This document shows positions 6,158 to 46,047 of a DNA stretch of 64,000 bases, one piece after another. Position 1 is the stretch's first letter. The number at the start of each line of letters is the position of its first letter. The stretch covers positions 64,521 to 128,520 of the forward strand of contig DATION010000006.1 of the NCBI GenBank assembly GCA_035473115.1, written 5' to 3'. Both the position numbers and the translations under genes were made by a program. The notes beneath the pieces are model-generated. The model searched no databases and was not told the DNA's origin. It saw nothing but the letters and a program-made list of their open reading frames with translations. Source of the DNA: Candidatus Udaeobacter sp. (GTDB taxonomy: Bacteria; Patescibacteriota; Patescibacteriia; Magasanikbacterales; GWA2-37-8).

Positions 6158-7684
<1,527 letters not shown>

Positions 7685-7812
7685 GGAGATACTCAGTCGA
7701 AAGACTGTGAATTTCTGTCGAGCATACTGATTTATCAGTATTGCGCCTCAACTTCGGTTGAGGACTGAAAGGATAGACCGGTCTTTGTCACATTTATGAA
7801 GTCAATGCAAAA

Positions 7813-7835
7813 AATTCGCTTATGGCGAATTTTTT
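7813..7835 (+). terminator. Hairpin with U-run after 16S (terminator or processing site)
   Basis: AATTCGC-ttatg-GCGAATT followed by TTTTT. Confidence 0.4.
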
Positions 7836-7887
7836 GTTGACTAAGTTTTATTTTACTATTATATTATTCGGTAGGAGGAACCAAAAA

Positions 7888-8064
7888 ATGCTTTTCAGGA
7901 TGAACCCTTTAAAAAACTCGAGATTGATATTGGCCATTTTGGAGAGGCTTCCCGGTCCAGTGATACTGTCATTGGTAGTTTTTCTGGAAGCCTTAGACAG
8001 AGGGCAAAGTATTTGTGCCGGAGTAAGAAGAGCCAAACAGGCTATGAGTTTGAAAAAAAAGTAG
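7888..8064 (+). CDS. Small hypothetical protein (58 aa) with its own promoter and Shine-Dalgarno sequence
   Basis: TTGACT (7837-7842), 17 nt, TATATT (7860-7865). AGGAGG (7873-7878) lies 9 nt before ATG 7888. One hydrophobic segment. The ORF track's longer version starts at 7822. Confidence 0.3.
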   Translation: MLFRMNPLKNSRLILAILERLPGPVILSLVVFLEALDRGQSICAGVRRAKQAMSLKKK

Positions 8065-8341
8065 TTTTCACCTAGAGGTATAGTGAGTGAGAGTGATTGA
8101 TCATTTAGAAGTTGGTAGACCAAATTTGGCAGGTAGCGAGCATACTCCGCCAATTGTACGGCTTGGCAGAGGTAAAATGCCTACCTTCGTAGTCGCCCGA
8201 TCACGAGGCATAAATCGTGAAGTCACAAAAACAATCTTAGTAAATAAGGTTGTTTTTGTTTGAAAATAACAGCAAATCAGGCCTTGATTTTTTAAGGCAA
8301 TCTGTTATACTTGATTTTACTAAAAAAGTTTTGTATAATCA

Positions 8342-8415
8342 GGGCAATTAGCTCAGTTGGTTAGAGCGTTACATTGACATTGTAAAGGTCAGAGGTTCGA
8401 ATCCTCTATTGCCCA
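8342..8415 (+). tRNA. tRNA-Val (anticodon GAC)
   Basis: Cloverleaf folded by hand: acceptor GGGCAAT/ATTGCCC, anticodon stem TTACA/TGTAA, loop TTGACAT, T-loop TTCGAAT. No encoded CCA. Confidence 0.9.
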
Positions 8416-8566
8416 CTTATGGGTTCCCAAGAGCCTTTATAGCCATTTTATGGCAAGTTTACTTTATTAAGATTTAAATTTTCTTGCAAAATGAATATTC
8501 ATTATGATATGCTAAAGGCAAAATTAAACTAGCGTATTATAATATTAACGATATAATTATATTTAT

Positions 8567-9838: not shown

Positions 9839-9861
9839 TAAATTTATTTTGATTAAAAAAT

Positions 9862-10137
9862 ATGACAGCAGATCTAAATCAAGCAAATACTAAAAGTGCT
9901 CAAGGTGTGAATGCGCAGCTTAATGATTTGTTAAAAGATGCAAAAAACCTTAATCGAGAAATAGATAAAACTAATAGTGAAGCAAATAAAAATATTGATG
10001 GCATTGAAGCGGTAGTTGATAGATCGGTAAATAAAATCACACGGATTTATTCTGACTTGGACGCGATAGAAGAAAATGCCGGAGACGAACTCGACAAACT
10101 TGTGCTTCAACGCACGAAAGACTTGGCTGACGAGTAG
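9862..10137 (+). CDS. Hypothetical small coiled-coil protein
   Basis: 91-aa ORF, charged and helical, ending immediately before tRNA-Ile. Confidence 0.45.
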   Translation: MTADLNQANTKSAQGVNAQLNDLLKDAKNLNREIDKTNSEANKNIDGIEAVVDRSVNKITRIYSDLDAIEENAGDELDKLVLQRTKDLADE

Positions 10138-10147
10138 ACTTAAAAGA

Positions 10148-10221
10148 GGGCATGTAGCTCAGATGGTTAGAGCGCGTCACTGATAATGACGAGGTCCCAA
10201 GTTCGATTCTTGGCATGCCCA
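10148..10221 (+). tRNA. tRNA-Ile (anticodon GAT)
   Basis: Acceptor GGGCATG/CATGCCC, anticodon stem CGTCA/TGACG, loop CTGATAA, T-loop TTCGATT. Followed by hairpin CGACGCTCAGCGTCG. Confidence 0.9.
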
Positions 10222-10397
10222 CGACGCTCAGCGTCGTTTTTGGCATATTTAGCGTGCCACTACGATAATTTTTAAGACCTGTTTATGACATGGTTTATTG
10301 TTGTTCATTTTCAGCATAGACTATTTGCCAAATATAAAAATTTAGTATATAATCCCATTTTAGATAGCTTTGAATTTTCAATAAAATAACTTATTTT

Positions 10398-14808: not shown

Positions 14809-14834
14809 CCTTTATAAAAAATAAAAAAATAATA

Positions 14835-21572: not shown

Positions 21573-21611
21573 GCAATCTATAATTAAAAATTAAGAATCA
21601 GCAAAAAATTG

Positions 21612-21620
21612 TGGTATAAT
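21612..21620 (+). promoter_or_regulatory. Extended -10 element (TGgTATAAT) 7 nt before the ATG of surface protein 3: possible leaderless transcript
   Basis: TGGTATAAT at 21612-21620, ATG at 21627, and no SD in between. Confidence 0.3.
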
Positions 21621-21626
21621 ATCTAT

Positions 21627-24600
21627 ATGTTGAAAAGAAAAAAAATACTCCTTTCTTTGTTAATAATAGTGGCAGCACTTAGTTTTTTAGTTTATCAAAA
21701 AGTCAGAGCTGCCAATGCCCCGGCTCTTAAAGAAGGAACTTATTTAACTGGCCAAACTCTAAGCGTCTGGCCATCATGGTCATTACTGAGCAATGCTCTT
21801 GGAGTTACTTTACCAACAGATCCTATCAATCAACTGGCTACAGCTGGGACTTGTGCCACTACTACCAACAGATTTTGTACAGCCGATAATCAGTGTCCGG
21901 CTGGTGAAGCCTGTGTTTTGCATGATCCGGAAACTGGCTGGAGTGTAGCTGATAGACGTTTTACCTTTGCTTGTTCCAAAGATTCTTATGCTTATCGCTA
22001 TTTTGCTTCCACCACGCCCGGCGCTTTTACAGTACGAGCTCACTTTGAAGATCCGGGGATTGCTCCGGGTAATTTCAATAGTTTTGTAGCCAGTTTTGTC
22101 AGTACTAGCATTGTTAAAATAAATGACAGCAGCGGTATCTGTAATTTTGATCAGGAAATTTCTTCTATCCAATCCGGTACTTGCGGCGATGGCAAATTAA
22201 ATTTAAACAAAGGCGAGCAATGTGACCCTCCGGGCAGAATTGAATACGCTAATGGCTGTGTGGGCAGTATTAAAAATTTAAATGTTTGCAGTAAAACTTG
22301 CCAGTGGACTCCATCTACAACGTTATGCAGTAATTTAAGTAAATGCGGCAACGGCTCGGTAGAGTTCGGAGAAACTTGCGATGACGGAAATTTAAATGGA
22401 AAGTATAATCACTGCAATACAACTTGTAATGGTGTTAGCGCTCTCGGAAAATGCGGCGACAACGTTTTGCAATCAGCTTATGAAGTTTGCGATCCGGGTA
22501 CACCGGGAAAAGAAAAGTATGCCACCAGTAAAGCAGCTTCTTGTAGTTGGGATTGTCAGAGTTTTGGCCCATACTGCGACGATAATACTGTTCAGTCTTC
22601 ATATGGAGAAGAGTGTGATGGTTCCCAAACTTGTTCGATCGATGGTAAACCAGGAACAAGGATTTGCAATGGCTGTTTGAAAAAAGATGATGATGCTGTG
22701 GCTTGGTGGCGCTTTGAGCAGCTAACAACTTCTGGACAAACAGGCCAGACAACTGATGGATCTATAAATGGTAATACTGCAACTTGCAGTATGGCAACTT
22801 GTCCTACAGTAGACAATGGAAAGTATGGTCATGATTTCATTTTTTCTAAAAATTCCGGCAATAGTAGCAATGCTAATGTAGATTCTTTTGCCGCCAATAA
22901 TGGTGATCCGGTGATAATAGATACTAACCCAGGTCCGTCTGGAAATACAACAAATTTAGTTGATCCTCATTTTTTAACTGTGTCTAATAGCCAGAGTCTT
23001 AATCCAATTAGTTCATTAACTGTTGAAGCCTGGATTTTTCCAACAGATATCAATGCTTTGTACCAGAGAATTATAGAAAAAGGCGGACCAGGAACAGGCA
23101 AAGGTTATGATTTAGAATTTAATTTATCTGCCACAGCTCATACGGTACGCTTTAATTTATGGAATGGAACACAAACTTCAGTAGATTCAAATAGTCAGAT
23201 CCCTCTTAATACCTGGACTCATATAGTTGGTACTTACACCAGAAGCGGCAACTCAAATATTATTAAGATTTATATTAACGGAGTTTTAGAAAATACAGTT
23301 ACAAACAGCAGTGCTGTGCCATCTATGGCCAAAGATGCGGGTAATTTAGCAATTGGCAAATCTGCCACCATTAGTGATAATTTTTTCTTTGGCAGCTTAG
23401 ACGAAGTAAAAATTTATAATCGCGCTTTATTAGCTTCCGAAGTGCAAAATAATTTTCAGAGCGGCTGGTTTTGCGCAGCTACTACTACTCCGGAAAGCTT
23501 GCCTGCCAGTGTTGGTAAATGCGGTGATGGTGTTATAAATATAAATGAAGTCTGTGATTCAGGCACAGGCAGTGTAGTAGATACAATCCCGGGTCCTTTA
23601 GGAACTCCAACAAGTCCGGGTATGTTCTCGATTAATTCAGCCGGCGGTAAAAAAATTACAGTTCATGAAAATGTTATTAGTACTACAGGTTGTTTTTCTG
23701 ATAACGCTACCGGTCGGGCGGCTTGTTCATCTAATTCTTGGGATTATAAAATTCCTTTTGATCAAGCGGGCAAGTATAGAGTTAAGTTTATTACTTCTAA
23801 TTACACTCAAAACTTAACTAGTAGTTCGTTTTCTAATGACCACTCCGAAGCTTTTTGTTCAGCTCCGGGTATTCAGCATCATATTGTAGTTTCTTTAGAC
23901 GGTGTAAAAGTAGGGGAGGACTGTGTGAATGCGGATTCTGCTCCTCAACATAGCCAGGCTTTTGATTTCAATATTAATTCATCAGGAAATCACACCTTAT
24001 CATTAGCTTGGGATAATGACTGGTATGCTCCTAATTTTTATGGCCCTAACTCAGCTGCTGATTCAAATATAAATATAAATAAAATTGAATTGATTCAAGG
24101 TGTCAGTAATGGCGAGCCTTGTGTACCAACTTATGGAAAGCCATGTGCTTATTGCGCAGCTGATTGTCAAAACACTATTGATGTTCAGCCTTTGCAGTAC
24201 TGCGGCAATGGAATTATTGAAGGCTCAGAAAGATGTGAAGTGGCCAATAATTTTATTTATAGCCCCACTTCTACTCCTGGTCGCACTGTGTCCACAAAAG
24301 ATGCGGCTTATAATGGCTACCGAGAATTAGCTTGCGCCAATGAGCCGGCTGCGCCTCATACTATAAATAAGGGTATCAAAACTTGCGCTAGCTGTGCTGC
24401 GGGCGTAGTTAGAAATTGTGTCAAATGTGGTCCTGATGTTAATGGCGTAAAAGTAAATGGCGGCATAATAAATGTTTTAGATAATCCGATCATAGATAAG
24501 GCTAGCAGTATTTCTCAAGATCCTCTTTTTATTAAAAAAGTTGCTGCTGGCGTTGGGCTTAGTTTGTCAGTCAGTTTATGCAAAAGCCCGGCTGGAGCAT

Positions 24601-26111
24601 TATTATGTTCAAGTTTAGTTGATCCGTTGTCGCCACTAGTGGCAGTTGCTCTAAAAAATATTAACTCAGATCCAATTTCTTATGTTCTGGGTGATTTACC
24701 AAGTAGTGGAGCCAATCCGGCGCTGCTTAGCAGTGATCCGGTATGTTCTGTCAGCGACACCTTTAATGATAAGTACCAGCTATATGTTAACAGCGATTGG
24801 ACTCGGCCATTAAATTTCCCGGTAGTGGCCGAACCGCAATCTTCACAGTATGATTTAGTTTTATCACCGGTTGTTTCTAAGACCAATCGTCCAAAAGATT
24901 TGCGAGTAGTGGTAAGCTGGATTGGTTCCGGTGATCTTTATAGTGGAGTTTTAAATCCATTTTTACCTAATCCGCAAACTGTTCCGCCAACTAGTCCGCA
25001 AATAGAAGGCGCTAACTTTTATGATGGTTCATCTTATCAATATGCTACAGGCGTAAATTATTATAATTCTCCGGATATCTTTAAAAAATTTGCTGTTTGG
25101 TATCATGGTTTTAATTTTACACCTGGCCAGACTATGAGTGAGGCTTTTACCCTTGATACTTCAGCTATGTCCGGCAATACCTATTCTTTTTATGTTCGTT
25201 CTCCAAGTTTCCCAATCAGAATCTTTAGAGGCACAGCCAAATTAAAAGCAGAGGTTTATTTGCCGGAAGATGATAATAATCAATATCATTTTGGCACGCC
25301 ACTAAAGACCTATTATCTTTCTTTTGCGACCCCTTCGGATAATCAAAATGCTCGTTATTGGCAAGTGTTTAATGTCAACCAACCACTACCATCTGCAGGT
25401 TTGGCAGCCTCAGATATTTTAGATATCAATGCCATAGTAAGCAGTCCGGATCGTTTTGTCTATAATAATCCGCTTATTCCTAATGCTACCTGCACAGACC
25501 TGGATTGGAGCAGATCGCCAAGCGCCACTCCTGCTTGCCCTGCATCCGGTTCATGGACTTATAACTGGACAAAGATAACCAATTGTGTCAATGGAGTAAA
25601 GCACCCGCCTGTAGAAGTGATAGCTTGTCCGATTTGCACAGCTGCTGACTGGGTCAGATCTCCGGCTACCAATCCGCCTACCTGTCCGCCATCCGGAGCT
25701 TGGACAATTAATTGGACAAAGATAGGAAATTGTACGGCTGGAGTTCAACATCAGCCTGTAGAAACTATTGGCTGCAAGCCATGCACAGATGCTGACTGGA
25801 CCAGTAGCCCTACCTATAATTCTAATTGTACTCAAGTTGGCACTGTTGTTTATACTTGGACAAAGATAGGGCAGTGCACTGGCGGTGTAACACATGTATC
25901 GCCTCAATCAGTTACCTGCAGAGCTTGTACAGGGGCTGATTATCAGAGATTCCCTGCCGTTGATCCGCCGTGTATTGAGCCGGAAGGTTGGCCAGTTACA
26001 TGGGTAAAAACAGCGAATTGTGCGGATGTAAATCGTCCTGTAGATTTATTTTGTAATTGCATACCAGATGAAAATGCGAGAAGGTATATTGTCAGATGTA
26101 GAGCAAATTAA
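21627..26111 (+). CDS. Giant surface protein 3 (~1494 aa): signal peptide, Cys-rich repeats, LamG/ConA-like domain, novel C-terminal Cys/Trp repeats
   Basis: MLKRKKILLSLLIIVAALSFLV signal/anchor. CGNGSVEFGETCDDGN-type repeats. LTVEAWIFPTD...WTHIVGTY...IKIYINGVLE matches the laminin-G_3 jelly-roll. Four ~41-aa repeats fill the last ~190 aa. Confidence 0.85.
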   Translation: MLKRKKILLSLLIIVAALSFLVYQKVRAANAPALKEGTYLTGQTLSVWPSWSLLSNALGVTLPTDPINQLATAGTCATTTNRFCTADNQCPAGEACVLHDPETGWSVADRRFTFACSKDSYAYRYFASTTPGAFTVRAHFEDPGIAPGNFNSFVASFVSTSIVKINDSSGICNFDQEISSIQSGTCGDGKLNLNKGEQCDPPGRIEYANGCVGSIKNLNVCSKTCQWTPSTTLCSNLSKCGNGSVEFGETCDDGNLNGKYNHCNTTCNGVSALGKCGDNVLQSAYEVCDPGTPGKEKYATSKAASCSWDCQSFGPYCDDNTVQSSYGEECDGSQTCSIDGKPGTRICNGCLKKDDDAVAWWRFEQLTTSGQTGQTTDGSINGNTATCSMATCPTVDNGKYGHDFIFSKNSGNSSNANVDSFAANNGDPVIIDTNPGPSGNTTNLVDPHFLTVSNSQSLNPISSLTVEAWIFPTDINALYQRIIEKGGPGTGKGYDLEFNLSATAHTVRFNLWNGTQTSVDSNSQIPLNTWTHIVGTYTRSGNSNIIKIYINGVLENTVTNSSAVPSMAKDAGNLAIGKSATISDNFFFGSLDEVKIYNRALLASEVQNNFQSGWFCAATTTPESLPASVGKCGDGVININEVCDSGTGSVVDTIPGPLGTPTSPGMFSINSAGGKKITVHENVISTTGCFSDNATGRAACSSNSWDYKIPFDQAGKYRVKFITSNYTQNLTSSSFSNDHSEAFCSAPGIQHHIVVSLDGVKVGEDCVNADSAPQHSQAFDFNINSSGNHTLSLAWDNDWYAPNFYGPNSAADSNININKIELIQGVSNGEPCVPTYGKPCAYCAADCQNTIDVQPLQYCGNGIIEGSERCEVANNFIYSPTSTPGRTVSTKDAAYNGYRELACANEPAAPHTINKGIKTCASCAAGVVRNCVKCGPDVNGVKVNGGIINVLDNPIIDKASSISQDPLFIKKVAAGVGLSLSVSLCKSPAGALLCSSLVDPLSPLVAVALKNINSDPISYVLGDLPSSGANPALLSSDPVCSVSDTFNDKYQLYVNSDWTRPLNFPVVAEPQSSQYDLVLSPVVSKTNRPKDLRVVVSWIGSGDLYSGVLNPFLPNPQTVPPTSPQIEGANFYDGSSYQYATGVNYYNSPDIFKKFAVWYHGFNFTPGQTMSEAFTLDTSAMSGNTYSFYVRSPSFPIRIFRGTAKLKAEVYLPEDDNNQYHFGTPLKTYYLSFATPSDNQNARYWQVFNVNQPLPSAGLAASDILDINAIVSSPDRFVYNNPLIPNATCTDLDWSRSPSATPACPASGSWTYNWTKITNCVNGVKHPPVEVIACPICTAADWVRSPATNPPTCPPSGAWTINWTKIGNCTAGVQHQPVETIGCKPCTDADWTSSPTYNSNCTQVGTVVYTWTKIGQCTGGVTHVSPQSVTCRACTGADYQRFPAVDPPCIEPEGWPVTWVKTANCADVNRPVDLFCNCIPDENARRYIVRCRAN

Positions 26112-35328: not shown

Positions 35329-36576
35329 TTATTTTAACGTTGGGTAAAGCGGAAATTTTTTGGTTAATTCAATTACCTCCTGTCTAATATTGGCCAATTT
35401 ATTTTCATCCTGCCAATTAGTAATCGCTTCATCTATCCAGCCGGCAATTATTTTCATTTCTGTTTCTTTCATGCCACGAGTGGTCAGGGCTGGTGTGCCC
35501 AAACGAATACCAGATGGATCCATAGGCGAGCGTGGATCATCGGGAATCATATTTTTGTTTACAGTAATGCCAGCTTTATCCAAGGCAATTTGTGCTTCCT
35601 TACCAGAAACGCCTTTTGGAGTTACATCTATAAGCAGTAAATGATTATCTGAACCACCAAAACATAATTTATAGCCAAGTTGGTTGAATTCTGTTTCCAG
35701 AACTTTTGTATTCTTTTTTATCTGTTTAACATATTCTTTAAATTCCGGTTCCATCGCTTCTTTAAAAGCGATAGCTTTGGCGGCAATGTTATTTTCGTGG
35801 GGGCCGCCTTGAAATCCAGGGAAAACAGATTTATCTATATCTTTAGCAAATTTTTCTTTACACATAATCATGCCGCCGCGGGGGCCGCGCAGAGTTTTAT
35901 GAGTAGTGGTAGTGACAATATCAAAGATTGGTACCGGGTTATTCATTTCGCCGCCAGCGATCAGTCCGGCAATATGGGCAATGTCAGCCATAGTAATAGC
36001 GCCCACTTCATCAGCAATCGCTTTTATTTTTTCGTATTCAATTTCTCTTGAATACGCAGAGTAGCCGACCAAAATTATTTTTGGTTTATGTTCCAAAGCC
36101 ATTTGGCGCAAATTATCTAAATCAATTAGGCCTTCAGCATTGGTCTTGTAGCGGACAAAGTTGTAGATTTTGGCCATGTAAGTTACCGGATGGCCGTGAG
36201 TAAGATGGCCGCCATGAGATAAGTCCATGCCTAAAACGGTATCGCCAGGTTTGAGCAAAGCAAAATAAACTGCCACGTTAGCCGGAGCGCCAGAAAGAGG
36301 TTGGACATTTACATGTTCCGCGCCAAAAATTTGTTTAGCTCGGTCTATGGCTAATTGTTCAACTTCATCGATAAATTCACAACCGCCATAGTATCTTTTT
36401 CCCGGGTAGCCTTCGGAGTATTTATTTGTCAAAACTGAACCGAGAGCTTCCAGCACAGCAGGGGAGACAAAATTTTCGGAAGGGATCATTTCCAGTCCTT
36501 CTTCTTGGCGTTTTTGTTCGCGTTTGATGCTTTGGTAAATATCAGAATCAAAATCTTTTAAGTTTTGAGTGTGCAT
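35329..36576 (-). CDS. glyA: Serine hydroxymethyltransferase
   Basis: [35 protein letters not shown], and the PLP-lysine region [10 protein letters not shown]. Confidence 0.95.
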
Positions 36577-36618: not shown

Positions 36619-37005
36619 TTAGAGAGATCTAATTAGATCATATACATTTTGCGCGCAGTTATCAGGTAAATTATTTATATCATGCCAAGCCCAATCCACA
36701 GTATCTTTTCCTGGTTTTATTTCTCCGATTCTTTTTGCTAAATAGTGAATAAGAATAATGACTCGGCCATTTTGGTGCAACATTATTGGTTTGAGTGGTT
36801 TTATTATTTCTATTTTTATGCCCATTTCTTCGCCAACTTCACGGTGGCAGGCGTCTTCTAAGCTTTTATCAAACTCTTCTACTTCGCCGCCAGGGAACAT
36901 CCATGGTGTAATGCCGCCTTGTTTTTGTTCGCGGTTAAGCAAAACTTTGTTATCTTCTATTATAACCGGCCCGGAAGCAATAATGGAATTTAGTGGTAGC
37001 TGCAT
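36619..37005 (-). CDS. NUDIX hydrolase
   Basis: Nudix box GGEVEEFDKSLEDACHREVGEEMGI. Confidence 0.8.
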   Translation of the reverse strand: MQLPLNSIIASGPVIIEDNKVLLNREQKQGGITPWMFPGGEVEEFDKSLEDACHREVGEEMGIKIEIIKPLKPIMLHQNGRVIILIHYLAKRIGEIKPGKDTVDWAWHDINNLPDNCAQNVYDLIRSL

Positions 37006-37018
37006 ACTATTTATAGTA

Positions 37019-38704
37019 CTATTTTTTCAAATTCTTTACCATATAGGTATTTTCCAGCTTATAGCCGAATTTTTTGTAGTATTCCCGGACGCCTACGCCA
37101 GAAATAACAGCCAGTTGATAGGCTTTATTTTGGCGGCAAATTTTTTCGGCTTCCGCAATCAGTTTTCTGCCCATGCCAATATGCTGGCTGGCGCCTTTAG
37201 ATTTTTTGCCAATATTAATCAACTGTCCGTAAGTATGCAGTTCGCGAATAAAAGCTGGATAGCCCATTTTATCCAAAGCAGCGGCGCTAATACCTTCACT
37301 CGGCAAGCCTTTATATTGGATTATTTTTTCTTTAGTTTTATCTTTTGTTAAAACACGCAAACGGCAAAAAGCATAGACAATATCACGGTTTTTATCTTCA
37401 AAACTCAAAAAGTATTCTTTACCGCCGCTAGCTTCGTATTCATCCACAAATAGTTTTGGTTTATGATTAAAACCTTCCTCAAAATGTTGATGGCCAACTT
37501 CTCGGCAGCGCAAACAATTGCATTTTAGGCCTTCTTTTTTCATTTCGTCCTGGATTACTTGGCGTAAATTGGTCATGGTGTTGCCGGCTTGGATATGATG
37601 GCCGGGAATGTCGCGAATCAAACGAGAGATGCGGACATATCTTGGCACCTTGGCTTTAAATTTTTTAAGTATGTTTATCAATTCGCGGTCTGAATAAGTT
37701 TTGTATTCACCTCGTTTTAGCCAATCATAAAGTTCGGAAGTTTTAATAACTGTACAGGGGTAAATTTTAATCATGTCTGGGCGGTACTGGGGTTCGTCAA
37801 AAATTTCCAGCATCATTTTTAAATCTGTTTTGGGGGTGGCTCCAGGCAGCTGAGGCATTAAATGAAAGTCTACTTTAAATCCATAATCTTTCAGCATACG
37901 AGTAGCTTGTTTGACTGCGCCAACACCATGGCCGCGCTTAGTTATCTGGAGAATTTTTTCGTTAGTGTGCTGTACGCCCAGTTCTAGTCTGGTTGTGCCC
38001 ATTTCGCGCATAGCGGCAATTGTACCTTTGTTGATAAAATCGGGTCGAGTTTCGATAGTTAAACCAATGATACGATGCTTAGCTGTTTCATTTCTTTTTT
38101 GAATTTTAAAGCTAAGTTTACGCAGTTCATCCAAAGGAAGCATTTCATCAACTTGGCTATTTTCAAATTTGGCATTATTGCAAGCTTCAAAACATCTGGC
38201 AATAAACCAGTATTGGTATTTAATCGGATAAGAATTCCAAGTGCCACCTTTGATAATTAATTCCACTTTATCAGTTGGGTGGCCATTGTTTTTTAAAGCC
38301 AGCAATCGTTGGAAAACTTGTTGGTAGGGATCAAAAGCTAAGCCTAAAGCGCGAGCTGCCGCTGGTTCATCAGCCAGGTAACTTTTTGGCATACGGGCTT
38401 CGGTCGGGCAATAAATACATTTGCCAGGGCAGGGAAATGGTTTGGTCAGAACAGTTATTATGCTGACGCCGGACAAGCTGCGCACTGCTCGGCGCATAAG
38501 TATTTTTTCTAAAGCTGGACTTTTTTTAATCTTGTGCTGCTTGAGTAATTTATGATATGATTTGAGCAGTTCAGGCTTGGTGGGAATGTTTGTTTGATGA
38601 TTTTTTTCTTGACGTAAAATATTTCTTAAGGTATCGCCAAAATCTCCCGCTGTTTGCGGAAGATTAGCCAAAAGCTGCTTGATCATTGAATCAGTAATAG
38701 ACAT
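37019..38704 (-). CDS. Elp3-family radical SAM + GNAT acetyltransferase (tRNA wobble uridine cm5U-type modification enzyme homolog)
   Basis: CPGKCIYCP radical-SAM cluster motif in Elp3 context. C-terminal GNAT motif QHIGMGRKLIAEAE. 561 aa matches Elp3 size. Confidence 0.8.
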   Translation of the reverse strand: MSITDSMIKQLLANLPQTAGDFGDTLRNILRQEKNHQTNIPTKPELLKSYHKLLKQHKIKKSPALEKILMRRAVRSLSGVSIITVLTKPFPCPGKCIYCPTEARMPKSYLADEPAAARALGLAFDPYQQVFQRLLALKNNGHPTDKVELIIKGGTWNSYPIKYQYWFIARCFEACNNAKFENSQVDEMLPLDELRKLSFKIQKRNETAKHRIIGLTIETRPDFINKGTIAAMREMGTTRLELGVQHTNEKILQITKRGHGVGAVKQATRMLKDYGFKVDFHLMPQLPGATPKTDLKMMLEIFDEPQYRPDMIKIYPCTVIKTSELYDWLKRGEYKTYSDRELINILKKFKAKVPRYVRISRLIRDIPGHHIQAGNTMTNLRQVIQDEMKKEGLKCNCLRCREVGHQHFEEGFNHKPKLFVDEYEASGGKEYFLSFEDKNRDIVYAFCRLRVLTKDKTKEKIIQYKGLPSEGISAAALDKMGYPAFIRELHTYGQLINIGKKSKGASQHIGMGRKLIAEAEKICRQNKAYQLAVISGVGVREYYKKFGYKLENTYMVKNLKK

Positions 38705-38707
38705 ATT

Positions 38708-39421
38708 ATGCTAGGCAAAGATACAGCTGAGATTATACATAAAACCCGGGAAGATTACAACCGGATAGCCAAACATTTTTCTGTTACTAGAGAATATGCT
38801 TGGCCGGAGTTTAAATATTTTAGCAGCTTTATAAAAGATGGCCAAAATATTCTAGATTGGGGTTGCGGCAACGGACGAATGGTTTTTTGTTTGCAAGGTA
38901 AAAAAGTAAAGTATTACGGCCTAGATCAAAGCAGCGGATTGATTAAAATAGCCAGAAAAAAGTTTGCCAATGAGGTAAAAAACGGGGTCGTAAATTTTGT
39001 TTGTACAGGATCACGAGATAAAAAATTTCCGGCAAGTTTTTTTGATCTGGTATTTATAATTGCTGCTTTATTTCATCTCCCTGATGAGCAAAGCCGGTTG
39101 GCACTTTTGCAGAAAATTCATAAAGAAATGAAGGTTGGTGGTCAACTGGTGGTAATGGTTTGGAACTTAGCTAGCGACTGGGCCAAAGTAAAAGCCAAAA
39201 AAAGCTGGGAAAAAATAGGGGAGAATGACTTTTTGATTCCTTGGAAAAATCCCGAAGGTGAAGTATTGGCCGAAAGATACTATCATCACTTTACTCCACA
39301 GGAGTTAAAAAACTTATTGGTTAAAGCCGGGTTTAAAGTAAAAAAATTAAAGTTTATGAAAAACGGCACTTGGACAGATGATAAGGGTGGCCAAAATTTA
39401 ATCGCGGTAGCTGTTAAATAA
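38708..39421 (+). CDS. Class I SAM-dependent methyltransferase (Trm9-like candidate)
   Basis: ILDWGCGNGRMVF (motif I) and DLVFIIAALFHL (post-II). Divergent from elp3 with a 3-bp gap. Confidence 0.75.
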   Translation: MLGKDTAEIIHKTREDYNRIAKHFSVTREYAWPEFKYFSSFIKDGQNILDWGCGNGRMVFCLQGKKVKYYGLDQSSGLIKIARKKFANEVKNGVVNFVCTGSRDKKFPASFFDLVFIIAALFHLPDEQSRLALLQKIHKEMKVGGQLVVMVWNLASDWAKVKAKKSWEKIGENDFLIPWKNPEGEVLAERYYHHFTPQELKNLLVKAGFKVKKLKFMKNGTWTDDKGGQNLIAVAVK

Positions 39422-39445
39422 AAGGTAGTCTTTGTAAATTTAAAA

Positions 39446-39481
39446 CCCGTCGCCTGACTGGGAATTAGTCTTGGCGACGGG
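39446..39481 (-). terminator. Rho-independent terminator, minus-strand orientation
   Basis: CCCGTCGCC...GGCGACGGG stem. On the minus strand it is followed by GUUUUAAAUUU. On the plus strand there is no U-run. Confidence 0.5.
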
Positions 39482-39526
39482 GGACAGAAGAGCCGTTTGT
39501 TTCGTGGTAGGGAAGCGCTAGCAGGC

Positions 39527-39955
39527 TTAGGATACAATTTGTAACCGTACTAGACAGAAAGTCGCGCTCCATAGCAGTTCTTCTGGTAACTTCATGTGGC
39601 ACCACCAAGGATTTGATTCTTGGTAGTTCATTGCTCGGATGAGCCCATCGTTGCTCCATAAAGGAAAAATAAAGCTAAATGGTTGGAGATCTTCGGGAAT
39701 TTGATCTCTATGCCGGAAAAGGAGCTGGCCGCTTCCTCGTCCCATATCCGCGCTAACCGCTCTTCCACGATTGATCAGTGTTTCCGTGCTGATGGCGCGT
39801 TCGGTTTTGGCATGGGCGTCATAGACGTCACATGTTATTGCCACGCCATCCGGTGTCCTGAGAAGGAAGCTTGCGAAGATCCTTGGAATGGCAATCGGGG
39901 GAATAGTTGGCAAGGGCGGTTTTTTTTGAGTTCGGACAGCTTTGCTTGTTTGCAT
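39527..39955 (-). CDS. Hypothetical protein on a second GC-rich island (coding status uncertain)
   Basis: GGAGGA lies 6 nt before the ATG on the minus strand, and the terminator above lies after the stop. The island is GC-rich enough that ORFs are open in several frames. Plus ORF 39683-40015 is the alternative. Confidence 0.3.
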   Translation of the reverse strand: MQTSKAVRTQKKPPLPTIPPIAIPRIFASFLLRTPDGVAITCDVYDAHAKTERAISTETLINRGRAVSADMGRGSGQLLFRHRDQIPEDLQPFSFIFPLWSNDGLIRAMNYQESNPWWCHMKLPEELLWSATFCLVRLQIVS

Positions 39956-40059
39956 GACGGATTTCCTCCGGTTGTTAAAAACAATTGTGCCGAAGCTGTA
40001 ATAGTTGTATCATAAAAGGTAATCTTGTCAAAGGTTTAAAGTTTTAATGTTTTTGTTTT

Positions 40060-40980
40060 ATGTCTGCTCAAACGTATCTTTGGATTTTGTTCGCGGCCAT
40101 CATTGTTATTTTTTTGGCGTTGGATTTGGGTTATTTTAATCGGAAAAGCCACAAGATAGAATTAAAGCCGGCTTTAAACCAGTCTTTGTTTTGGATAGGA
40201 ATTTCTTTAGCATTTAGTTTTTTAATTTTTATTTTTCTTAGCAAAGAGTTATCGGCGGAGTTTTTAAGCGCTTATATAACGGAAAAAATGTTGTCGGTAG
40301 ACAATCTGTTTGTAATCATGTTGATTTTTAGTTATTTTAAATTGGAAGAAAAGTATCATCATCGGGTATTATTTTGGGGGATAATGGGCGCTATAGTTTT
40401 TCGAGCCATATTTATTAGCGCTGGTTCTTATTTAGTGAGCCAGTTTCATTGGATATTATATATTTTTGGCGGCTTACTGGTATATACGGGGGTTAAATTA
40501 TTAGGCGACAAAAAAGAGGAACATGTTGATTTTAGCAATAATAAAATAATTAAATTTGCGCAGAAAATTCTGCCTTTTTCCGCCAATCATCATGAGGGAA
40601 AGTTTTTCCTTAAAGAAAATGGCAAACTGTTTTTTTCTTCGCTTTTTTTAGTAATGATTCTGGTAGAGGTAACTGATATTGTCTTTGCGACTGATTCTAT
40701 TCCGGCAGTGTTTTCTATATCGCAAAATTCATTTATAGTTTTTACTTCCAATATTTTTGCTATTATGGGTCTGAGGGCTCTGTTTTTTCTGATCGAAAAT
40801 ATCTTGCGCCGTTTCCATCACCTGCAAAAAGGTCTGGCCTTTATACTTTTATTCATCGGTTTAAAGATGCTGCTGGGTATATTTGGTTTAGAAATATCTT
40901 CTTTTATATCTTTTGCAGTCATTATGCTGGCTTTGGCGACATCGATGATTTTGTCGGCAATTTTTCCGAAAAAAATTTAA
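40060..40980 (+). CDS. TerC family integral membrane protein
   Basis: MLSVDNLFVIMLIF plus a repeated D-N-containing TM pattern typical of TerC/Alx. Confidence 0.85.
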   Translation: MSAQTYLWILFAAIIVIFLALDLGYFNRKSHKIELKPALNQSLFWIGISLAFSFLIFIFLSKELSAEFLSAYITEKMLSVDNLFVIMLIFSYFKLEEKYHHRVLFWGIMGAIVFRAIFISAGSYLVSQFHWILYIFGGLLVYTGVKLLGDKKEEHVDFSNNKIIKFAQKILPFSANHHEGKFFLKENGKLFFSSLFLVMILVEVTDIVFATDSIPAVFSISQNSFIVFTSNIFAIMGLRALFFLIENILRRFHHLQKGLAFILLFIGLKMLLGIFGLEISSFISFAVIMLALATSMILSAIFPKKI

Positions 40981-41029: not shown

Positions 41030-41698
41030 TTGAGATTTAACTCATTTATAGAAATTATGAAAAATTTTCATCGAGGCGACAAGTCTGGCGGCGGCAGAGA
41101 TCATAAAGGTTTTGGCAAGAGAAATTCCGGCGGCCATGGCTTTGGCGGTGGCAATAGGGGTTTTGGCGGCAGAGACGGTGAAAGACCAAATATGATGTTT
41201 AAGGCGGTCTGCAGCCAGTGCGGCAAAGATTGCCAATTGCCTTTTAAACCAAATGGCAACCGACCAGTTTTTTGCAGCACCTGTTTTGAAATCCAAAAAA
41301 ATGAAAACCCCGACAGATCAGAAAGAAAGAGTTTCAGTAAGCCTAAATTTGAGGATAAAAAATTGTTTGAAGCGGTTTGCGGCAACTGCGGCGATAACTG
41401 TTTAGTGCCGTTTCGTCCGTTTCCTGGCAAGCCAGTTTTTTGCAAGAAATGTTTTGATAAAGATGATAAGGTTGTAAATCATACTATTGTTAAAACTGAT
41501 AATAGTAATAATAAAAATTTCGAACAGCTTAAATCTGAGATTGAAATGATTAATATCAAGCTGGATAGAATTTTGCGAGAGCTGACCCCCAAAGAAGATC
41601 GTGAAGAAATCGAAGAAGAAGTTGAAGAAATCGTAAAAGAAGCTCCTAAAAAAACTGCTAAACCTTCCAAAAAATCAACTGCCAAAAAGAAAAAATAA
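41030..41698 (+). CDS. Gly/Arg-rich (RGG-like) protein with two CxxC...CxxCF zinc-ribbon repeats and a Lys-rich tail
   Basis: GFGGGNRGFGGRDGERP low-complexity N-terminus. Two copies of AVCxxCGxxCxxPFxPxxxxPVFCxxCF. KKSTAKKKK tail. Confidence 0.6.
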   Translation: MRFNSFIEIMKNFHRGDKSGGGRDHKGFGKRNSGGHGFGGGNRGFGGRDGERPNMMFKAVCSQCGKDCQLPFKPNGNRPVFCSTCFEIQKNENPDRSERKSFSKPKFEDKKLFEAVCGNCGDNCLVPFRPFPGKPVFCKKCFDKDDKVVNHTIVKTDNSNNKNFEQLKSEIEMINIKLDRILRELTPKEDREEIEEEVEEIVKEAPKKTAKPSKKSTAKKKK

Positions 41699-43614: not shown

Positions 43615-46047
43615 ATGTTTATAGCCCGCCTGAAACAATCGCTAAATATTAAATATTTCATGGCGGGCTATTTGTGCCTGTTGGTATTATTGGCATCTTT
43701 TTACTTTAAAGACTTGGTAATTTTTGCGGATGGAATTTTATTGGTAGCGCTTTATACTGGTTTTGATCTTTTATGGACCTATGCCCGAGACCGAGTCTGG
43801 TATTTGCCGACATCAGCTTGGATATCCGGTTTTGTTTTAACAATTGGCGCTTTTCCTAAACCGCCGCTGTTAGTTTTAATCGTTCTTCCTTTACTGGCCG
43901 TAGCTTCAAAACAGCTGCTGCATTTTGGTAAAAATCGTCATTTGTTTAATCCGGCTGCTTTTGCTTTGGCAGTAATAAGTTTGTTTAATCCAGCTGTTTC
44001 TTGGTGGGCCGTGGCCGGAGCAGTATTGCCTACAATTGCCGGTCTGCAAAAATTAGATTTGGGAATGTGGTTGTTTTTGTTTACATTTTTTGCGGCTCTA
44101 ATTATTTTGTGGAAACAAAATCGTTGGCATATTACTTTGCCTTTTTTATTTTCTTATGCTTTTTTTATCGGAGTGTTTTCTTTGGTTAACGGCGTAGTTT
44201 TGGGCAGGTTGCCGAATGTCCTTTTTTTTCAGATAGCCAATGGCGCAGTTCTTTTCTTTTCTACGGTAATGGTGATTGAGCCGATTACTTCAACTTTTTC
44301 AACTAAGCGGCAGGAAATATTATATGGAGCGATGGTTGGTCTGGCAGCTGTAGTGATAATTTATTTTTCTCGTAAGTTTAATTTGGTTAATTTAGACCCG
44401 TTGGTTTTTGGACTTTTAAGTGGAAATTTAATAGCCGGACTTATGTTTTTGCCGGCCCGAAAATTAGCTAAGAATTCATCTGTTAAAAAAGGCTGTTCAA
44501 GTTGTGTTGATTGCAGTTGCAAAGAAGCTGCGCCGGCAAAAATTTCCAGAGAGCCCTCTTATTGGTTTAGAGATGTGCCGGACCAAAATCGGTTTCCGGT
44601 TTTACAAGGTGATAAAGAATTTGATGCCGTAATTGTGGGTGGCGGTATTGCCGGTGTAGCGGTGGCATATTTTTTGGCAAAAAATGGCTTGAGCGCGGCG
44701 GTGCTTGAAGCCGGCACTATCGGCAGCGGTGATTCCAGCTATACTACCGCTTGCGCTACTCGTTTTCTTGATTCGGTTGATGCCAGTTTAAAAGCTTGGG
44801 AAAGCAGCGCCGAAGCTATCGCGATGCTGAAAAAAATAGTTGAAGAAGAGAATATAGATTGCGATTGGCAAGATGTTGATACGATCTGTTTTTCTCGGGA
44901 AACAGATAAAAAATCTTTGAATAATTTTTTGGCCACAGCGCAAAAATTTCAATCTAAGGACAGCTCAATTGAATATTTAGTTAAAGATGAAGCCAGCGCT
45001 TCGGTTGGTGTTCCCGTATCGGCAGCTTATCAAAAAAAATCCGCTGAAGGCATGTTTCATATGCGCAAGCTTTTAATGGCTTTGGCAGAAAGAGCAATAA
45101 AAAACGGAGCTTTATTTTTTGAAGATAGCGAGGCTACTAATTTTACTTTTGGTGATCAGGTCGTAGTTAAAACAAAAAAGGGGGGTATCAAGGCAAAATG
45201 GCTTATTGTCGCCACTGGTTTGCCGCCAGTAAAGTTTTTTCCGGCAGTTAGCAAATTGCTGCGCAGTGCAGTTAGTTATGTTATTGATGTAAAGTTTGCA
45301 GAAAAACCGCCGTTTGCTAAAGCATTTTTTTGGGATGATCAAGATCCATACCATTATTTTCGTTCAGTTGCTGAAAATGAATTTATTTTGGGCGGTGAAG
45401 ATTGGAAAACAAATAGCTCTAAGCCGGATTTAAATCCGCATTTGCAATTGGAAAAATGGTTTAAAAATCTTGTTGGCAGACAGGCATCGTTTAAAGTAGT
45501 TAATAGTTGGCAAGGTTCACTTTTTTATACGCCAGATACTTTGCCTCTGGTCGGGCCTCATCCGAAATACGGAAAAAATATTATTTTTTTAACTGGCTGG
45601 GCTGGGAACGGCACAGCGCAAGGTGTTTTTGCGGCTAGTATGGCAGTTAGTATTATTCAGAAAAAAAATAATCCTTATTATCATCTGTTTGCCTGCGATC
45701 GCAAGTTGTCTTGGCCAGTTGAAAATAATTCAGGTAATTTGTCTGTTTTAGCAAGTGTTGAGACTGGCGCGCTGGCAAAAGAATATTTAGAAAATAAAGG
45801 CAAAATTTTGGAAGTGGCCGGGCAAAAATTAGCGGTGATAAAAACTAACGGGAAGATCAAAGCTTTTTCAGCTCTCTGTCCACACCTTGGCTGTGCTGTT
45901 GGCTGGAATGACACCGAAAACACTTGGGATTGCCCTTGCCACGGGTCACGTTTTGAGTCTGATGGTTCACTTAAGAATGGTCCGGCTAAACGCGGGCTTG
46001 ATCCGGTGGAAATTAAGCTAGAAAATGATCAGATTAAAATTGTTTAA
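43615..46047 (+). CDS. Three-module membrane redox protein: RnfD/NqrB-like polytopic domain + FAD-dependent oxidoreductase + Rieske [2Fe-2S] domain
   Basis: [12 protein letters not shown] and [25 protein letters not shown] resemble the RnfD motifs GQNPFNPAM and [31 protein letters not shown] Cys cluster. [22 protein letters not shown] Rossmann motif. CPHLGC...CPCHGS Rieske motif. Confidence 0.75.
   Translation: [810 protein letters not shown]

What the first reader, a model, noticed from the sequence alone, without database searches (positions are those of the whole stretch)
37019..39421. Bacterial Elp3 homolog divergently paired (3-bp gap) with a class-I methyltransferase: possible complete cm5U-to-mcm5U wobble pathway
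ORF 37019-38704 has the Elp3 radical-SAM cluster motif (CPGKCIYCP) and a C-terminal GNAT fold. Elp3 catalyses cm5U formation on tRNA wobble uridines in eukaryotes and archaea and is patchy in bacteria. Head-to-head with it, start codons only 3 bp apart, is a SAM methyltransferase (ILDWGCGNGRMVF) of the size and motif pattern of Trm9, the enzyme that methylates cm5U to mcm5U. The tight pairing suggests functional coupling. The 3-bp divergent gap also means both promoters must lie inside the partner's coding sequence, or one start is misassigned.
Basis: partly seen in the sequence, partly recalled or inferred. Interest (0 to 1): 0.55.

Follow-up and report, generated by a model that had tools for sequence, protein, structure and literature searches.

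The report
Bacterial Elp3–Trm9 wobble-uridine gene pair
An uncultivated (CPR/Patescibacteria-type) bacterium carries, back to back, the two enzymes that eukaryotes and archaea use to build the tRNA wobble modification mcm5U, and the pairing is kept in nearly every relative examined, so this pathway very probably operates in a bacterial lineage where it has not been described.

Summary
ORF 37019-38704 (-) is a full-length Elp3. ORF 38708-39421 (+) is a class I methyltransferase, and the two ATGs are 3 bp apart.

- The methyltransferase's best solved relative is Yarrowia Trm9 (profile E 4e-24).
- All eight residues whose mutation inactivates yeast Trm9 are present and conserved in 65 homologues.
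- Elp3 lies divergently next to the methyltransferase in 64 of 64 informative methyltransferase-centred loci, and in 22 of 25 Elp3-centred CPR-type loci. These include distant CPR lineages whose flanking genes differ.
- It scores far below the curated cut-offs for UbiE and CmoM.

The tiny gap is ancestral: 51 of 65 loci have start codons -12 to +16 bp apart. The Elp3 promoter sits inside methyltransferase codons 9-18 (TTGTAA, 17 nt, TATAAT). It is visible as the strongest synonymous-codon anomalies in that gene.

No methyltransferase promoter, Trm112 partner or MnmEG status could be established. A NUDIX hydrolase recurs beside the pair and is fused to the methyltransferase in some relatives.

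The chemistry is inferred, not shown. Verdict: a new bacterial member of a known pathway, of moderate interest.

The parts
37019..38704 (-). Elp3 homologue (561 aa): radical-SAM domain, KAT/GNAT domain and an extended basic N-terminus (residues 1-~70, 15 K/R and 6 D/E in the first 75)
   Evidence: TIGR01211 ELP3 545 bits against cut-off 350. PDB 6iaz E 6e-120 and 5l7j E 1e-117, with 5l7j starting only at query residue 70. The N-terminus is conserved from residue 1 in relatives.
38408..38431 (-). Radical-SAM [4Fe-4S] cysteine motif C92-x3-C96-x2-C99 (CPGKCIYC)
   Evidence: Read directly from the sequence. Aligned to the cluster cysteines of MinElp3.
37058..37186 (-). KAT-domain acetyl-CoA-binding segment (QHIGMGRKL ... 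REYYKKFGY, residues 507-549)
   Evidence: Pfam Acetyltransf_10 at residues 506-549. Aligned to QHMGYGRML...REYYRKLGY of MinElp3.
38708..39421 (+). Trm9-like class I SAM methyltransferase (237 aa). Predicted reaction: cm5U34 to mcm5U34 methyl ester.
   Evidence: Best PDB sequence hit is YlTrm9 5cm2_Z. AF2 model pLDDT 92.8. Foldseek against 5cm2_Z gives E 1e-14 and TM 0.81 on the target. Residues R28, D73, H123, W152, W179, R190, Y192 and N230 correspond to ScTrm9 R29, D72, H116, W145, W168, R241, Y243 and N271.
38852..38875 (+). SAM-binding motif I (LDWGCGNG, residues 49-56)
   Evidence: Sequence. Invariant in the alignments.
38702..38710 (.). Head-to-head junction: CAT (Elp3 start, - strand), ATT, ATG (MTase start)
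   Evidence: In 51 of 65 related loci the two starts lie -12 to +16 bp apart, and the commonest arrangement is CATATG.
38732..38737 (-). Predicted -10 hexamer TATAAT of the Elp3 promoter, encoded by MTase codons I9-I10 (ATT ATA)
   Evidence: Promoter scan, 10 of 12 matches. ATTATA in 44 of 62 orthologues. I10 is ATA in 83%, against 5-19% at the other conserved Ile columns. This is the strongest synonymous anomaly among 85 conserved columns.
38755..38760 (-). Predicted -35 hexamer TTGTAA of the Elp3 promoter (MTase codons D16-Y17-N18), with a 17-nt spacer
   Evidence: Y17 is TAC in 90%, against 18-24% at the other conserved Tyr columns (rank 2). N18 is AAC in 72%, against 10-31% (rank 4).
36619..37005 (-). 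NUDIX hydrolase (128 aa), 13 bp downstream of Elp3 on the same strand. Possible accessory; role unknown.
   Evidence: Pfam NUDIX E 1e-14. Present downstream of Elp3 in 23 of 68 loci. MTase-NUDIX fusion proteins P0146 and P0175 also lie divergent to Elp3.

Best explanation
The two genes encode a two-step tRNA wobble-uridine pathway of the eukaryotic/archaeal type in a CPR (Patescibacteria, Magasanikbacteria-like) bacterium. Elp3 acts alone, without Elp1,2,4-6. It uses its radical-SAM cluster, SAM and acetyl-CoA to place a carboxymethyl group on C5 of U34, giving cm5U. The adjacent Trm9 orthologue then uses SAM to methyl-esterify that carboxylate, giving mcm5U; this would become mcm5s2U if a thiolase is present elsewhere in the genome. 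The genes are transcribed divergently from a control region with essentially no intergenic DNA. The Elp3 promoter (TTGTAA, 17 nt, TATAAT) lies inside MTase codons 9-18. It would start an Elp3 mRNA with a short leader that lacks a Shine-Dalgarno (SD) sequence, about 21 nt here and about 8 nt in many relatives, in a genome that uses almost no SD sequences. What is shown: family membership of both proteins, conservation of the Trm9 active-site residues, near-universal divergent adjacency, and synonymous-site constraint exactly at the two promoter hexamers. What is inferred: the chemistry, the tRNA substrates, the transcription start, and whether a Trm112-like partner is needed.
For: Elp3: TIGR01211 545 bits against cut-off 350. 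Full-length alignment to solved Elp3s with an intact CX3CX2C motif and acetyl-CoA motif. It has an archaeal-type extended basic N-terminus, which DmcElp3 lacks and which is needed for tRNA binding (PMC6367351). MTase: YlTrm9 is the top PDB hit (E 4e-15; profile E 4e-24). The equivalents of ScTrm9 R29, D72, H116, W145, W168, R241, Y243, N271 and Y18 are present and invariant or near-invariant in 65 homologues. hhalign gives 99.9% probability, E 7e-37, to the MTases that flank archaeal-type Elp3. Linkage: divergent Elp3 in 64 of 64 informative MTase loci, including Komeili-, Paceibacter- and Moranbacteria-type lineages with 30% MTase identity. 22 of 25 CPR-type Elp3 loci carry the MTase. The flanking genes are not kept in the distant lineages, whereas the pair is. 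Promoter. SD-less genome: 1 of 44 genes.
Against: No modification chemistry can be observed here. Fold search alone does not single out Trm9: METTL6 ranks marginally higher. Neither Pfam nor NCBIfam holds a Trm9-specific model, so no curated cut-off could be applied. ScTrm9 H115 is Phe in this protein, although it is His in many homologues and H115A is nearly wild type. Eukaryotic and archaeal Trm9 need Trm112, and no Trm112-like ORF was found in the DNA held; this covers only a small part of each genome. No promoter for the MTase was found. Half of the loci with a wide gap keep ATTATA too, so the motif is not strictly tied to the tight junction. All loci are related, so counts of loci are not independent events.
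Confidence: 0.75

Rival explanations
1. The methyltransferase is a generic small-molecule (UbiE/MenG-like) or otherwise unrelated enzyme, and its adjacency to Elp3 is only synteny inherited within one clade.
For: Pfam reports only generic class I families, including Ubie_methyltran (E 2e-13). Many sources name homologues 'UbiE'. SHMT and pyruvate kinase are also conserved neighbours within the Magasanikbacteria-type clade.
Against: UbiE equivalog models score 48 bits or less against cut-offs of 216-378. Trm9 is the best PDB hit by 16 bits. The residues that bind cm5U in Trm9 are conserved. The pair persists where the flanks do not, and similar MTases flank archaeal Elp3. CPR bacteria generally lack quinone biosynthesis (general knowledge, not tested here).
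Confidence: 0.05
2. The methyltransferase does work with Elp3 on tRNA, but the end product is not plain mcm5U. It might act on a different Elp3-derived intermediate, on a thiolated substrate only, or as part of a three-enzyme route that includes the recurrent NUDIX hydrolase.
For: Archaea with Elp3 make other derivatives, and the step leading to ncm5U is still unknown (PMC6367351; PMC3110198, listed). NUDIX is linked to the pair by neighbourhood (23 of 68 loci) and by fusion to the MTase. H115, proposed to read O4 of U34, is Phe here.
Against: The full set of residues placed around the cm5U carboxylate and the uracil ring in the Trm9 model is conserved. NUDIX is absent from two thirds of the loci.
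Confidence: 0.15
3. One start codon is misassigned, so a normal intergenic promoter region exists. For example, Elp3 might start at M69, as in the short Dehalococcoides enzyme.
For: DmcElp3 (5l7j) aligns only from query residue 70. There is no SD to mark either start.
Against: Elp3 residues 1-68 are conserved as protein from residue 1-3 in more than 55 loci and correspond to the basic N-terminus of archaeal Elp3 (PMC6367351). The MTase ATG is the only start upstream of the conserved Trm9 N-terminal helix. Abutting or overlapping starts recur in 51 of 65 loci.
Confidence: 0.07
4. The conserved ATTATA...TTACAA in MTase codons 9-18 is not a promoter. It reflects constraints on the MTase mRNA itself, such as an A/U-rich, unstructured start region needed for SD-less initiation.
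For: The genome lacks SD sequences, so 5' coding regions may be under selection at the RNA level. 7 of 14 wide-gap loci keep ATTATA. No TSS data are available.
Against: The Y17 and N18 anomalies favour C-ending codons (TAC 90%, AAC 72%) against the gene's A/T preference. That creates the TTG of a -35 hexamer at exactly 17 nt from a perfect TATAAT. An A/U-richness constraint predicts the opposite.
Confidence: 0.15

Closest known systems
Eukaryotic Elongator (Elp3) plus Trm9-Trm112 pathway for mcm5U/mcm5s2U
   Same: The same two catalytic families in the same predicted order. The Trm9 residues R29, D72, H116, W145, W168, R241, Y243 and N271 are all conserved. Elp3 has the extended basic N-terminus.
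   Different: No Elp1,2,4-6. No Trm112 identified. Three of the six hydrophobic Trm112-contact residues of YlTrm9 map to N47, K68 and K106 here. The genes are physically paired. The host is bacterial. An extra beta-hairpin (residues 219-229) precedes the last strand of the MTase.
Archaeal Elp3 with Trm9 homologues (gene cluster in Sulfolobus solfataricus; Haloferax volcanii Trm9-Trm112)
   Same: Stand-alone Elp3 with a neighbouring Trm9-family MTase (PMC2584109; PMC6144793). MTases next to archaeal-type Elp3 in metagenome loci are homologous to this one (hhalign 99.9%).
   Different: The archaeal neighbours are much more divergent (profile scores 60-95 against 140-410 for CPR) and lack the TR motif (ScTrm9 R29). 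Their orientation and spacing vary. The strict head-to-head abutment and the embedded promoter are features of the CPR clade.
Dehalococcoides mccartyi Elp3 (DmcElp3), the reference bacterial Elp3
   Same: A bacterial, stand-alone Elp3 with the same domain architecture (5l7j E 1e-117).
   Different: DmcElp3 lacks the N-terminal about 70 residues and has weak tRNA binding and activity (PMC7663514). Reviews describe bacterial Elp3 as rare, and one confines it to Dehalococcoides. No Trm9 partner has been reported for it.
Bacterial wobble-U pathways: MnmE-MnmG (cmnm5U) and CmoA/CmoB/CmoM (mcmo5U methyl ester)
   Same: Same target position (U34). CmoM likewise methyl-esterifies a wobble-uridine carboxylate.
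   Different: Unrelated chemistry and enzymes for the first step. The CmoM model scores 22 bits against a cut-off of 366. Whether MnmEG is absent from this genome could not be tested; none lies in the 64-kb window.

Membership tests
Elp3 (TIGR01211; tRNA U34 carboxymethyl synthase) | Full-length match above the curated family cut-off | tested here: met
   545.3 bits against 350, residues 48-559 on model positions 34-522 of 522.
Elp3 (TIGR01211; tRNA U34 carboxymethyl synthase) | Radical-SAM cysteine triad for the [4Fe-4S] cluster | tested here: met
   C92, C96 and C99 (CPGKCIYC), aligned to the MinElp3 cluster motif.
Elp3 (TIGR01211; tRNA U34 carboxymethyl synthase) | C-terminal KAT/GNAT domain with an acetyl-CoA-binding Q/RxxGxG motif | tested here: met
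   QHIGMGRKL at residues 507-515 aligned to QHMGYGRML of 6iaz. Pfam Acetyltransf_10 at 506-549 is weak, E 0.003.
Elp3 (TIGR01211; tRNA U34 carboxymethyl synthase) | Extended basic N-terminus used for tRNA binding (archaeal/eukaryotic type) | tested here: met
   Residues 1-~70 are present, with 15 K/R and 6 D/E. They are conserved in relatives and align to MinElp3 from residue 52. The feature is described in PMC6367351.
Elp3 (TIGR01211; tRNA U34 carboxymethyl synthase) | cm5U34 formation on tRNA | not testable with these tools
   Needs biochemistry or LC-MS.
Trm9 / ALKBH8-MTase family (cm5U to mcm5U) | Class I SAM-MTase fold with motif I and the acidic residue at the end of beta2 (ScTrm9 D72) | tested here: met
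   AF2 pLDDT 92.8 with a Rossmann-like strand order. LDWGCGNG and D73 are invariant.
Trm9 / ALKBH8-MTase family (cm5U to mcm5U) | Closest characterised relative is Trm9 rather than another MTase family | tested here: met
   5cm2_Z is the top hit of 177,635 PDB sequences: E 4e-15 with the single protein and E 4e-24 with the profile, 16 bits above the next hit. By fold alone it ranks second after METTL6.
Trm9 / ALKBH8-MTase family (cm5U to mcm5U) | Residues essential for ScTrm9 activity: R29, H116, W145, W168, R241, Y243, N271 (plus Y18 and H115) | tested here: met
   R28, H123, W152, W179, R190, Y192, N230 and Y17 are present and invariant or at least 90% conserved in 65 homologues. H115 is F122 here, but His in many homologues. 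The N230 assignment rests on the MAFFT alignment and the position of the last beta-strand.
Trm9 / ALKBH8-MTase family (cm5U to mcm5U) | Obligate Trm112 partner | tested here: inconclusive
   No Trm112-like ORF in the window or the roughly 160 loci held, but these cover only a small fraction of each genome. The interface mapping is mixed: V98, P108, F112 and D113 are kept, while N47, K68 and K106 replace hydrophobic residues.
Trm9 / ALKBH8-MTase family (cm5U to mcm5U) | Co-occurrence with the enzyme that makes its substrate (Elp3) | tested here: met
   64 of 64 informative MTase loci and 22 of 25 CPR-type Elp3 loci.
Trm9 / ALKBH8-MTase family (cm5U to mcm5U) | Match to a curated Trm9-specific family model | tested here: inconclusive
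   Neither Pfam-A nor NCBIfam returned a Trm9-specific model; only generic MTase families hit. IMG/KEGG labels one homologue TRM9.
Trm9 / ALKBH8-MTase family (cm5U to mcm5U) | Methyl esterification of cm5U34 | not testable with these tools
   Needs an enzyme assay or complementation of trm9-delta yeast.
UbiE/MenG quinone C-methyltransferases | Score above the equivalog cut-off | tested here: not met
   Best hit 47.7 bits against cut-off 216; the other models score 24-44 bits against 158-420.
CmoM (cmo5U methyl esterase-forming MTase) | Score above the equivalog cut-off | tested here: not met
   21.7 bits against 366.
Sigma-70-type promoter (for Elp3, embedded in the MTase ORF) | -35 and -10 hexamers at 17-nt spacing, conserved beyond what coding requires | tested here: met
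   TTGTAA, 17 nt, TATAAT: 10 of 12 matches. The synonymous anomalies rank 1, 2, 4 and 8 among 85 conserved columns and fall exactly on the hexamers.
Sigma-70-type promoter (for Elp3, embedded in the MTase ORF) | Mapped transcription start | not testable with these tools
   No transcriptome data are available.

The most novel reading that the evidence does not exclude
CPR bacteria run a self-contained wobble-uridine module of archaeal/eukaryotic type that has displaced the bacterial MnmE-MnmG route. In it, the Trm9 orthologue works without Trm112, because its partner-binding surface has been partly made hydrophilic, and a NUDIX hydrolase is a third, so far unrecognised component (a neighbour in about a third of loci, fused to the MTase in others, and also found beside archaeal pairs). 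The module is wired by promoters embedded in coding sequence at a zero-length divergent junction.
Probability: 0.25. Interest if true: 0.72.

Novelty: new member of a known kind. Interest (0 to 1): 0.56.

Why it matters
A 2020 review presents Elp3 in bacteria as a curiosity of Dehalococcoides with no evidence of xcm5U derivatives (PMC7663514). A 2017 review states that no bacterial homologue of the Trm112-dependent methyltransferases could be detected (PMC5372719).

A conserved Elp3-Trm9 pair across many Patescibacteria would mean three things:
- mcm5U-type decoding is not restricted to archaea and eukaryotes.
- There would be small, stand-alone enzymes for mechanistic work. Elp3 here has a full tRNA-binding N-terminus, and the Trm9 may be soluble without Trm112.
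- The pair would be a marker for gene exchange between CPR bacteria and archaea.

The junction is also a clean natural example of a promoter maintained by synonymous-site selection inside a partner gene. The claim is directly testable by heterologous expression, which matters because these organisms are uncultivated.

Tried and rejected
- Cluster look-up of distant profile hits gave almost no names and no taxonomy.
- Search for an MTase promoter inside Elp3. Hexamer scans anchored on Elp3 codons gave only weak, scattered peaks. The first 75 Elp3 codons show no synonymous-codon outlier. No MTase promoter is claimed.
- Trm112. A motif scan of all small ORFs in the window and loci found nothing. 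No small conserved ORF accompanies the pair. Genome-wide absence cannot be concluded.
- MnmE/MnmG. None was found among ten of the larger ORFs of the window.
- NUDIX substrate. PDB sequence searches return only generic MutT, Ndx1 and Nudix-1 hits. The fused and the free NUDIX share only the Nudix box.
- The 620-bp G+C-rich stretch 39440-40060. There is no Rfam family, no Pfam or PHROG hit for its ORFs and no similarity to any locus. Fold z-scores are -1.9 (+ strand) and -3.0 (- strand). It remains unexplained.
- Literature searches for Elp3 in Patescibacteria/CPR or for a bacterial Trm9 found nothing relevant.
Full report
**1. The observation**

The window holds ORF 37019..38704 on the minus strand (561 aa) and ORF 38708..39421 on the plus strand (237 aa). 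The junction reads cat-att-atg at 38702-38710, so the two ATGs are separated by 3 bp. CPGKCIYC is at 38408-38431 (C92/C96/C99), and ILDWGCGNGRMVF is residues 48-60 of the methyltransferase (MTase).

The window is bacterial. It has a bacterial 16S rRNA gene and genes for FtsA, FtsZ, GatA and HisRS. Its closest relatives are labelled Candidatus Magasanikbacteria, Patescibacteria or Parcubacteria. Other labels look like binning or placeholder errors. These are 'Ca. Udaeobacter' for the identical protein and 'uncultured Gammaproteobacteria' for many MAGs.

**2. Elp3**

- The 561-aa protein scores 545 bits against TIGR01211 ELP3, whose cut-off is 350.
- It aligns over its whole length with the solved Elp3 of Methanocaldococcus infernus (E 6e-120) and Dehalococcoides mccartyi (E 1e-117).
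- The radical-SAM triad is intact, as are the Cys-rich CNCLRC segment and the acetyl-CoA motif QHIGMGRKL.
- Unlike DmcElp3, which aligns only from residue 70, it carries a basic N-terminal extension of about 70 residues. This is the archaeal/eukaryotic type that the literature links to tRNA binding (PMC6367351; PMC7663514).
- The extension is conserved from residue 1-3 in more than 55 related loci. This supports M1 as the start.

**3. The methyltransferase is a Trm9 orthologue**

Pfam and NCBIfam give only generic class I families. The UbiE, MenG, CmoA/B and CmoM models all score far below their cut-offs.

Against all PDB sequences the best hit is the Trm9 subunit of the Yarrowia lipolytica Trm9-Trm112 complex, 5cm2_Z. 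The single protein gives E 4e-15 over residues 27-229. A 65-sequence profile gives E 4e-24 and 88 bits, against 72 bits for the next hit.

Letoquart et al. 2015 (PMC4678810) identified eight ScTrm9 residues whose alanine substitution abolishes or strongly reduces activity, and proposed that Y18 contacts the cm5U carboxylate. The equivalents here are listed below. All are invariant or at least 90% conserved in 65 homologues.

| ScTrm9 | This MTase |
|---|---|
| R29 | R28 |
| D72 | D73 |
| H116 | H123 |
| W145 | W152 |
| W168 | W179 |
| R241 | R190 |
| Y243 | Y192 |
| N271 | N230 |
| Y18 | Y17 |

Only H115 differs, being F122 here. It is His in many homologues, and H115A is nearly wild type.

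An AlphaFold model has pLDDT 92.8. It shows the expected fold plus an extra hairpin (residues 219-229) before the last strand, which begins at N230. Foldseek finds Trm9 second (E 1e-14, TM 0.81 on the target), just after METTL6. Fold alone is therefore not discriminating.

**4. Co-occurrence**

- A scan of one genome per species with the MTase profile gave 71 true relatives.
- In every locus with enough upstream DNA, Elp3 lies divergently next to the MTase: 64 of 64. L068 has 956 bp upstream and resembles L071, whose gap is 941 bp.
- This holds for Komeilibacteria-, Paceibacterota-, Parcubacteria- and Moranbacteria-labelled genomes. There the MTase is only about 30% and Elp3 40-48% identical to the window.
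- In those distant lineages the flanking genes (SHMT, pyruvate kinase) are mostly not retained.
- Starting instead from Elp3 in metagenome contigs, 22 of 25 CPR-type Elp3 genes with upstream DNA have the divergent MTase.
- More distant Elp3 loci include demonstrably archaeal ones, with archaeal GluRS and CCA enzyme. Several carry a weaker Trm9-like MTase nearby that is homologous to the CPR family (hhalign 99.9%, E 7e-37). This matches the known archaeal clustering (PMC2584109).

**5. The junction and its promoter**

- Across 65 loci the distance between the two start codons is -12 to +16 bp in 51. The commonest arrangement is CATATG, and distant lineages have CATG overlaps.
- Fourteen loci have 64-1059 bp, some with palindromic inserts. 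The tight junction is therefore ancestral.
- A promoter scan finds TTGTAA (38760-38755), a 17-nt spacer and TATAAT (38737-38732) on the Elp3 strand, inside the MTase ORF.
- In a codon alignment of 62 non-identical orthologues, these hexamers coincide with the strongest synonymous-codon anomalies of the gene, shown in the table below.
- The C-ending preferences at Y17 and N18 run against the gene's A/T bias and create the TTG of the -35 hexamer. This argues against a simple A/U-richness constraint.
- The distance from the -10 hexamer to the Elp3 ATG is 27 nt here and clusters at 15 and 25-29 nt elsewhere. That implies leaders of about 8 or about 20 nt.
- The genome has essentially no SD sequences, 1 of 44 genes, so such short SD-less leaders are the norm.
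- The reciprocal search found no conserved promoter for the MTase inside Elp3.
- ATTATA is kept in 37 of 48 tight loci and in 7 of 14 wide-gap loci, a weak contrast.

| MTase codon | Preferred codon at this column | Same codon at other conserved columns of that residue | Rank among 85 columns |
|---|---|---|---|
| I10 | ATA in 83% | 5-19% | 1 |
| Y17 | TAC in 90% | 18-24% | 2 |
| N18 | AAC in 72% | 10-31% | 4 |
| I9 | ATT in 96% | 47-80% | 8 |

**6. Mechanism proposed**

Elp3 alone converts U34 to cm5U using SAM and acetyl-CoA. The Trm9 orthologue then methyl-esterifies it to mcm5U. Divergent transcription from overlapping control sequences couples the two genes physically. The family assignments, the conserved residues, the linkage and the embedded Elp3 promoter signal are shown. 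The chemistry, the substrates, the transcription start and any partner proteins are inferred.

**7. Open points**

- Trm112. No Trm112-like ORF occurs in the DNA held, which is uninformative at genome scale. I mapped the YlTrm9-Trm112 interface onto the alignment. V98, P108, F112 and D113 are kept, but N47, K68 and K106 stand where hydrophobic contacts lie. This is a hint of independence, not a test.
- MnmE/MnmG. Their status is unknown.
- NUDIX. A NUDIX gene follows Elp3 here and in 23 of 68 loci. Two MTase clusters are MTase-NUDIX fusions, and both sit divergent to Elp3. NUDIX also lies beside the MTase in loci L124 and L130, which carry more distant, possibly archaeal, Elp3 genes. Its substrate cannot be inferred.

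**8. Comparison and novelty**

The system works like the eukaryotic Elongator/Trm9 pathway and the archaeal Elp3/Trm9 pathway, and both proteins pass the membership features that could be tested.

What is new is the host and the breadth. A 2020 review confines bacterial Elp3 to Dehalococcoides and notes that no xcm5U derivative has been shown there. A 2017 review states that bacterial homologues of Trm112-partner MTases are undetectable. The searches found no paper on Elp3 or Trm9 in Patescibacteria.

Two points count against novelty. A 2026 paper already speaks of Elp3 in 'numerous bacteria'. Automatic annotation already calls a few homologues TRM9.

I rate it a new member of a known kind, with interest 0.56.

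Noticed in passing
window 36619-37005 (-); loci L160 4447-5580, L161 4162-5304; L124 3144-3575; L130 2309-2719: A small MutT-like NUDIX hydrolase follows Elp3 here and in 23 of 68 related loci. In two protein clusters (P0146, P0175) a NUDIX domain is fused to the C-terminus of the Trm9-like MTase, and both fusions sit divergent to Elp3. NUDIX genes also lie beside the MTase in loci L124 and L130, which carry more distant, possibly archaeal, Elp3 genes. It may be a third component of the module; its substrate is unknown.
   Followed up: partly
window 35329-36576 (-); 63 loci including L065, L095 and L160 621-1874: Serine hydroxymethyltransferase (glyA) is the most persistent further neighbour, downstream of Elp3 (and NUDIX) on the same strand, even in some distant lineages. 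It could be inherited synteny or a link to one-carbon/SAM supply.
   Followed up: partly
whole window (44 gene starts checked): Only 1 of 44 genes has a Shine-Dalgarno-like motif upstream, although the 16S 3' end keeps CCUCC (7670-7690). Several genes have TATAAT-like boxes 3-12 nt before the ATG, which suggests widespread leaderless or very short-leader mRNAs.
   Followed up: partly
window 39440-40060: A 620-bp stretch between the MTase and terC is G+C-rich (0.45-0.55 against about 0.36). It has no Rfam, Pfam or PHROG match and no similarity to any related locus. It holds a 142-aa ORF on the - strand (39527-39955) and a strong hairpin at 39447-39483, followed by a T-run on the - strand. The fold z-score is -3.0 on the - strand. 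It could be an acquired orphan gene or an unknown RNA.
   Followed up: partly
window 12766-26111 (+): Three consecutive large ORFs (680, 2255 and 1500 aa). Two of them (680 and 2255 aa) carry N-terminal T4SS-pilin-like and Ig-like (Big_5, TIG) domains; the third (1500 aa) carries a laminin-G domain. These are giant surface proteins of the kind typical of CPR bacteria.
   Followed up: no
window 6151-10222: The 16S rRNA gene is followed by tRNA-Val(GAC), a 423-aa ORF with no family match (8567-9838) and tRNA-Ile(GAU). No 23S gene lies in the remaining 54 kb, so the rRNA operon is unlinked or interrupted.
   Followed up: no
L010, L037, L044 junctions: In loci where the Elp3-MTase gap is 64-90 bp, the extra DNA consists of short palindromic or repeated units (for example GTTACGTG repeats in L037). 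This suggests secondary insertion of small repeats into an ancestrally zero-length junction.
   Followed up: no
window 43615-46047 (+) and 41030-41698 (+): An 810-aa fusion of an RnfD/NqrB-like membrane domain, an FAD-dependent oxidoreductase and a Rieske domain. Also a 222-aa protein with a Gly/Arg-rich N-terminus and two treble-clef zinc fingers.
   Followed up: no
records behind L001-L063 and P0001: Taxonomic labels of close relatives conflict (Magasanikbacteria, Patescibacteria, 'uncultured Gammaproteobacteria', 'Ca. Udaeobacter') despite 50-100% protein identity. The last two labels are probably pipeline or binning artefacts.
   Followed up: no
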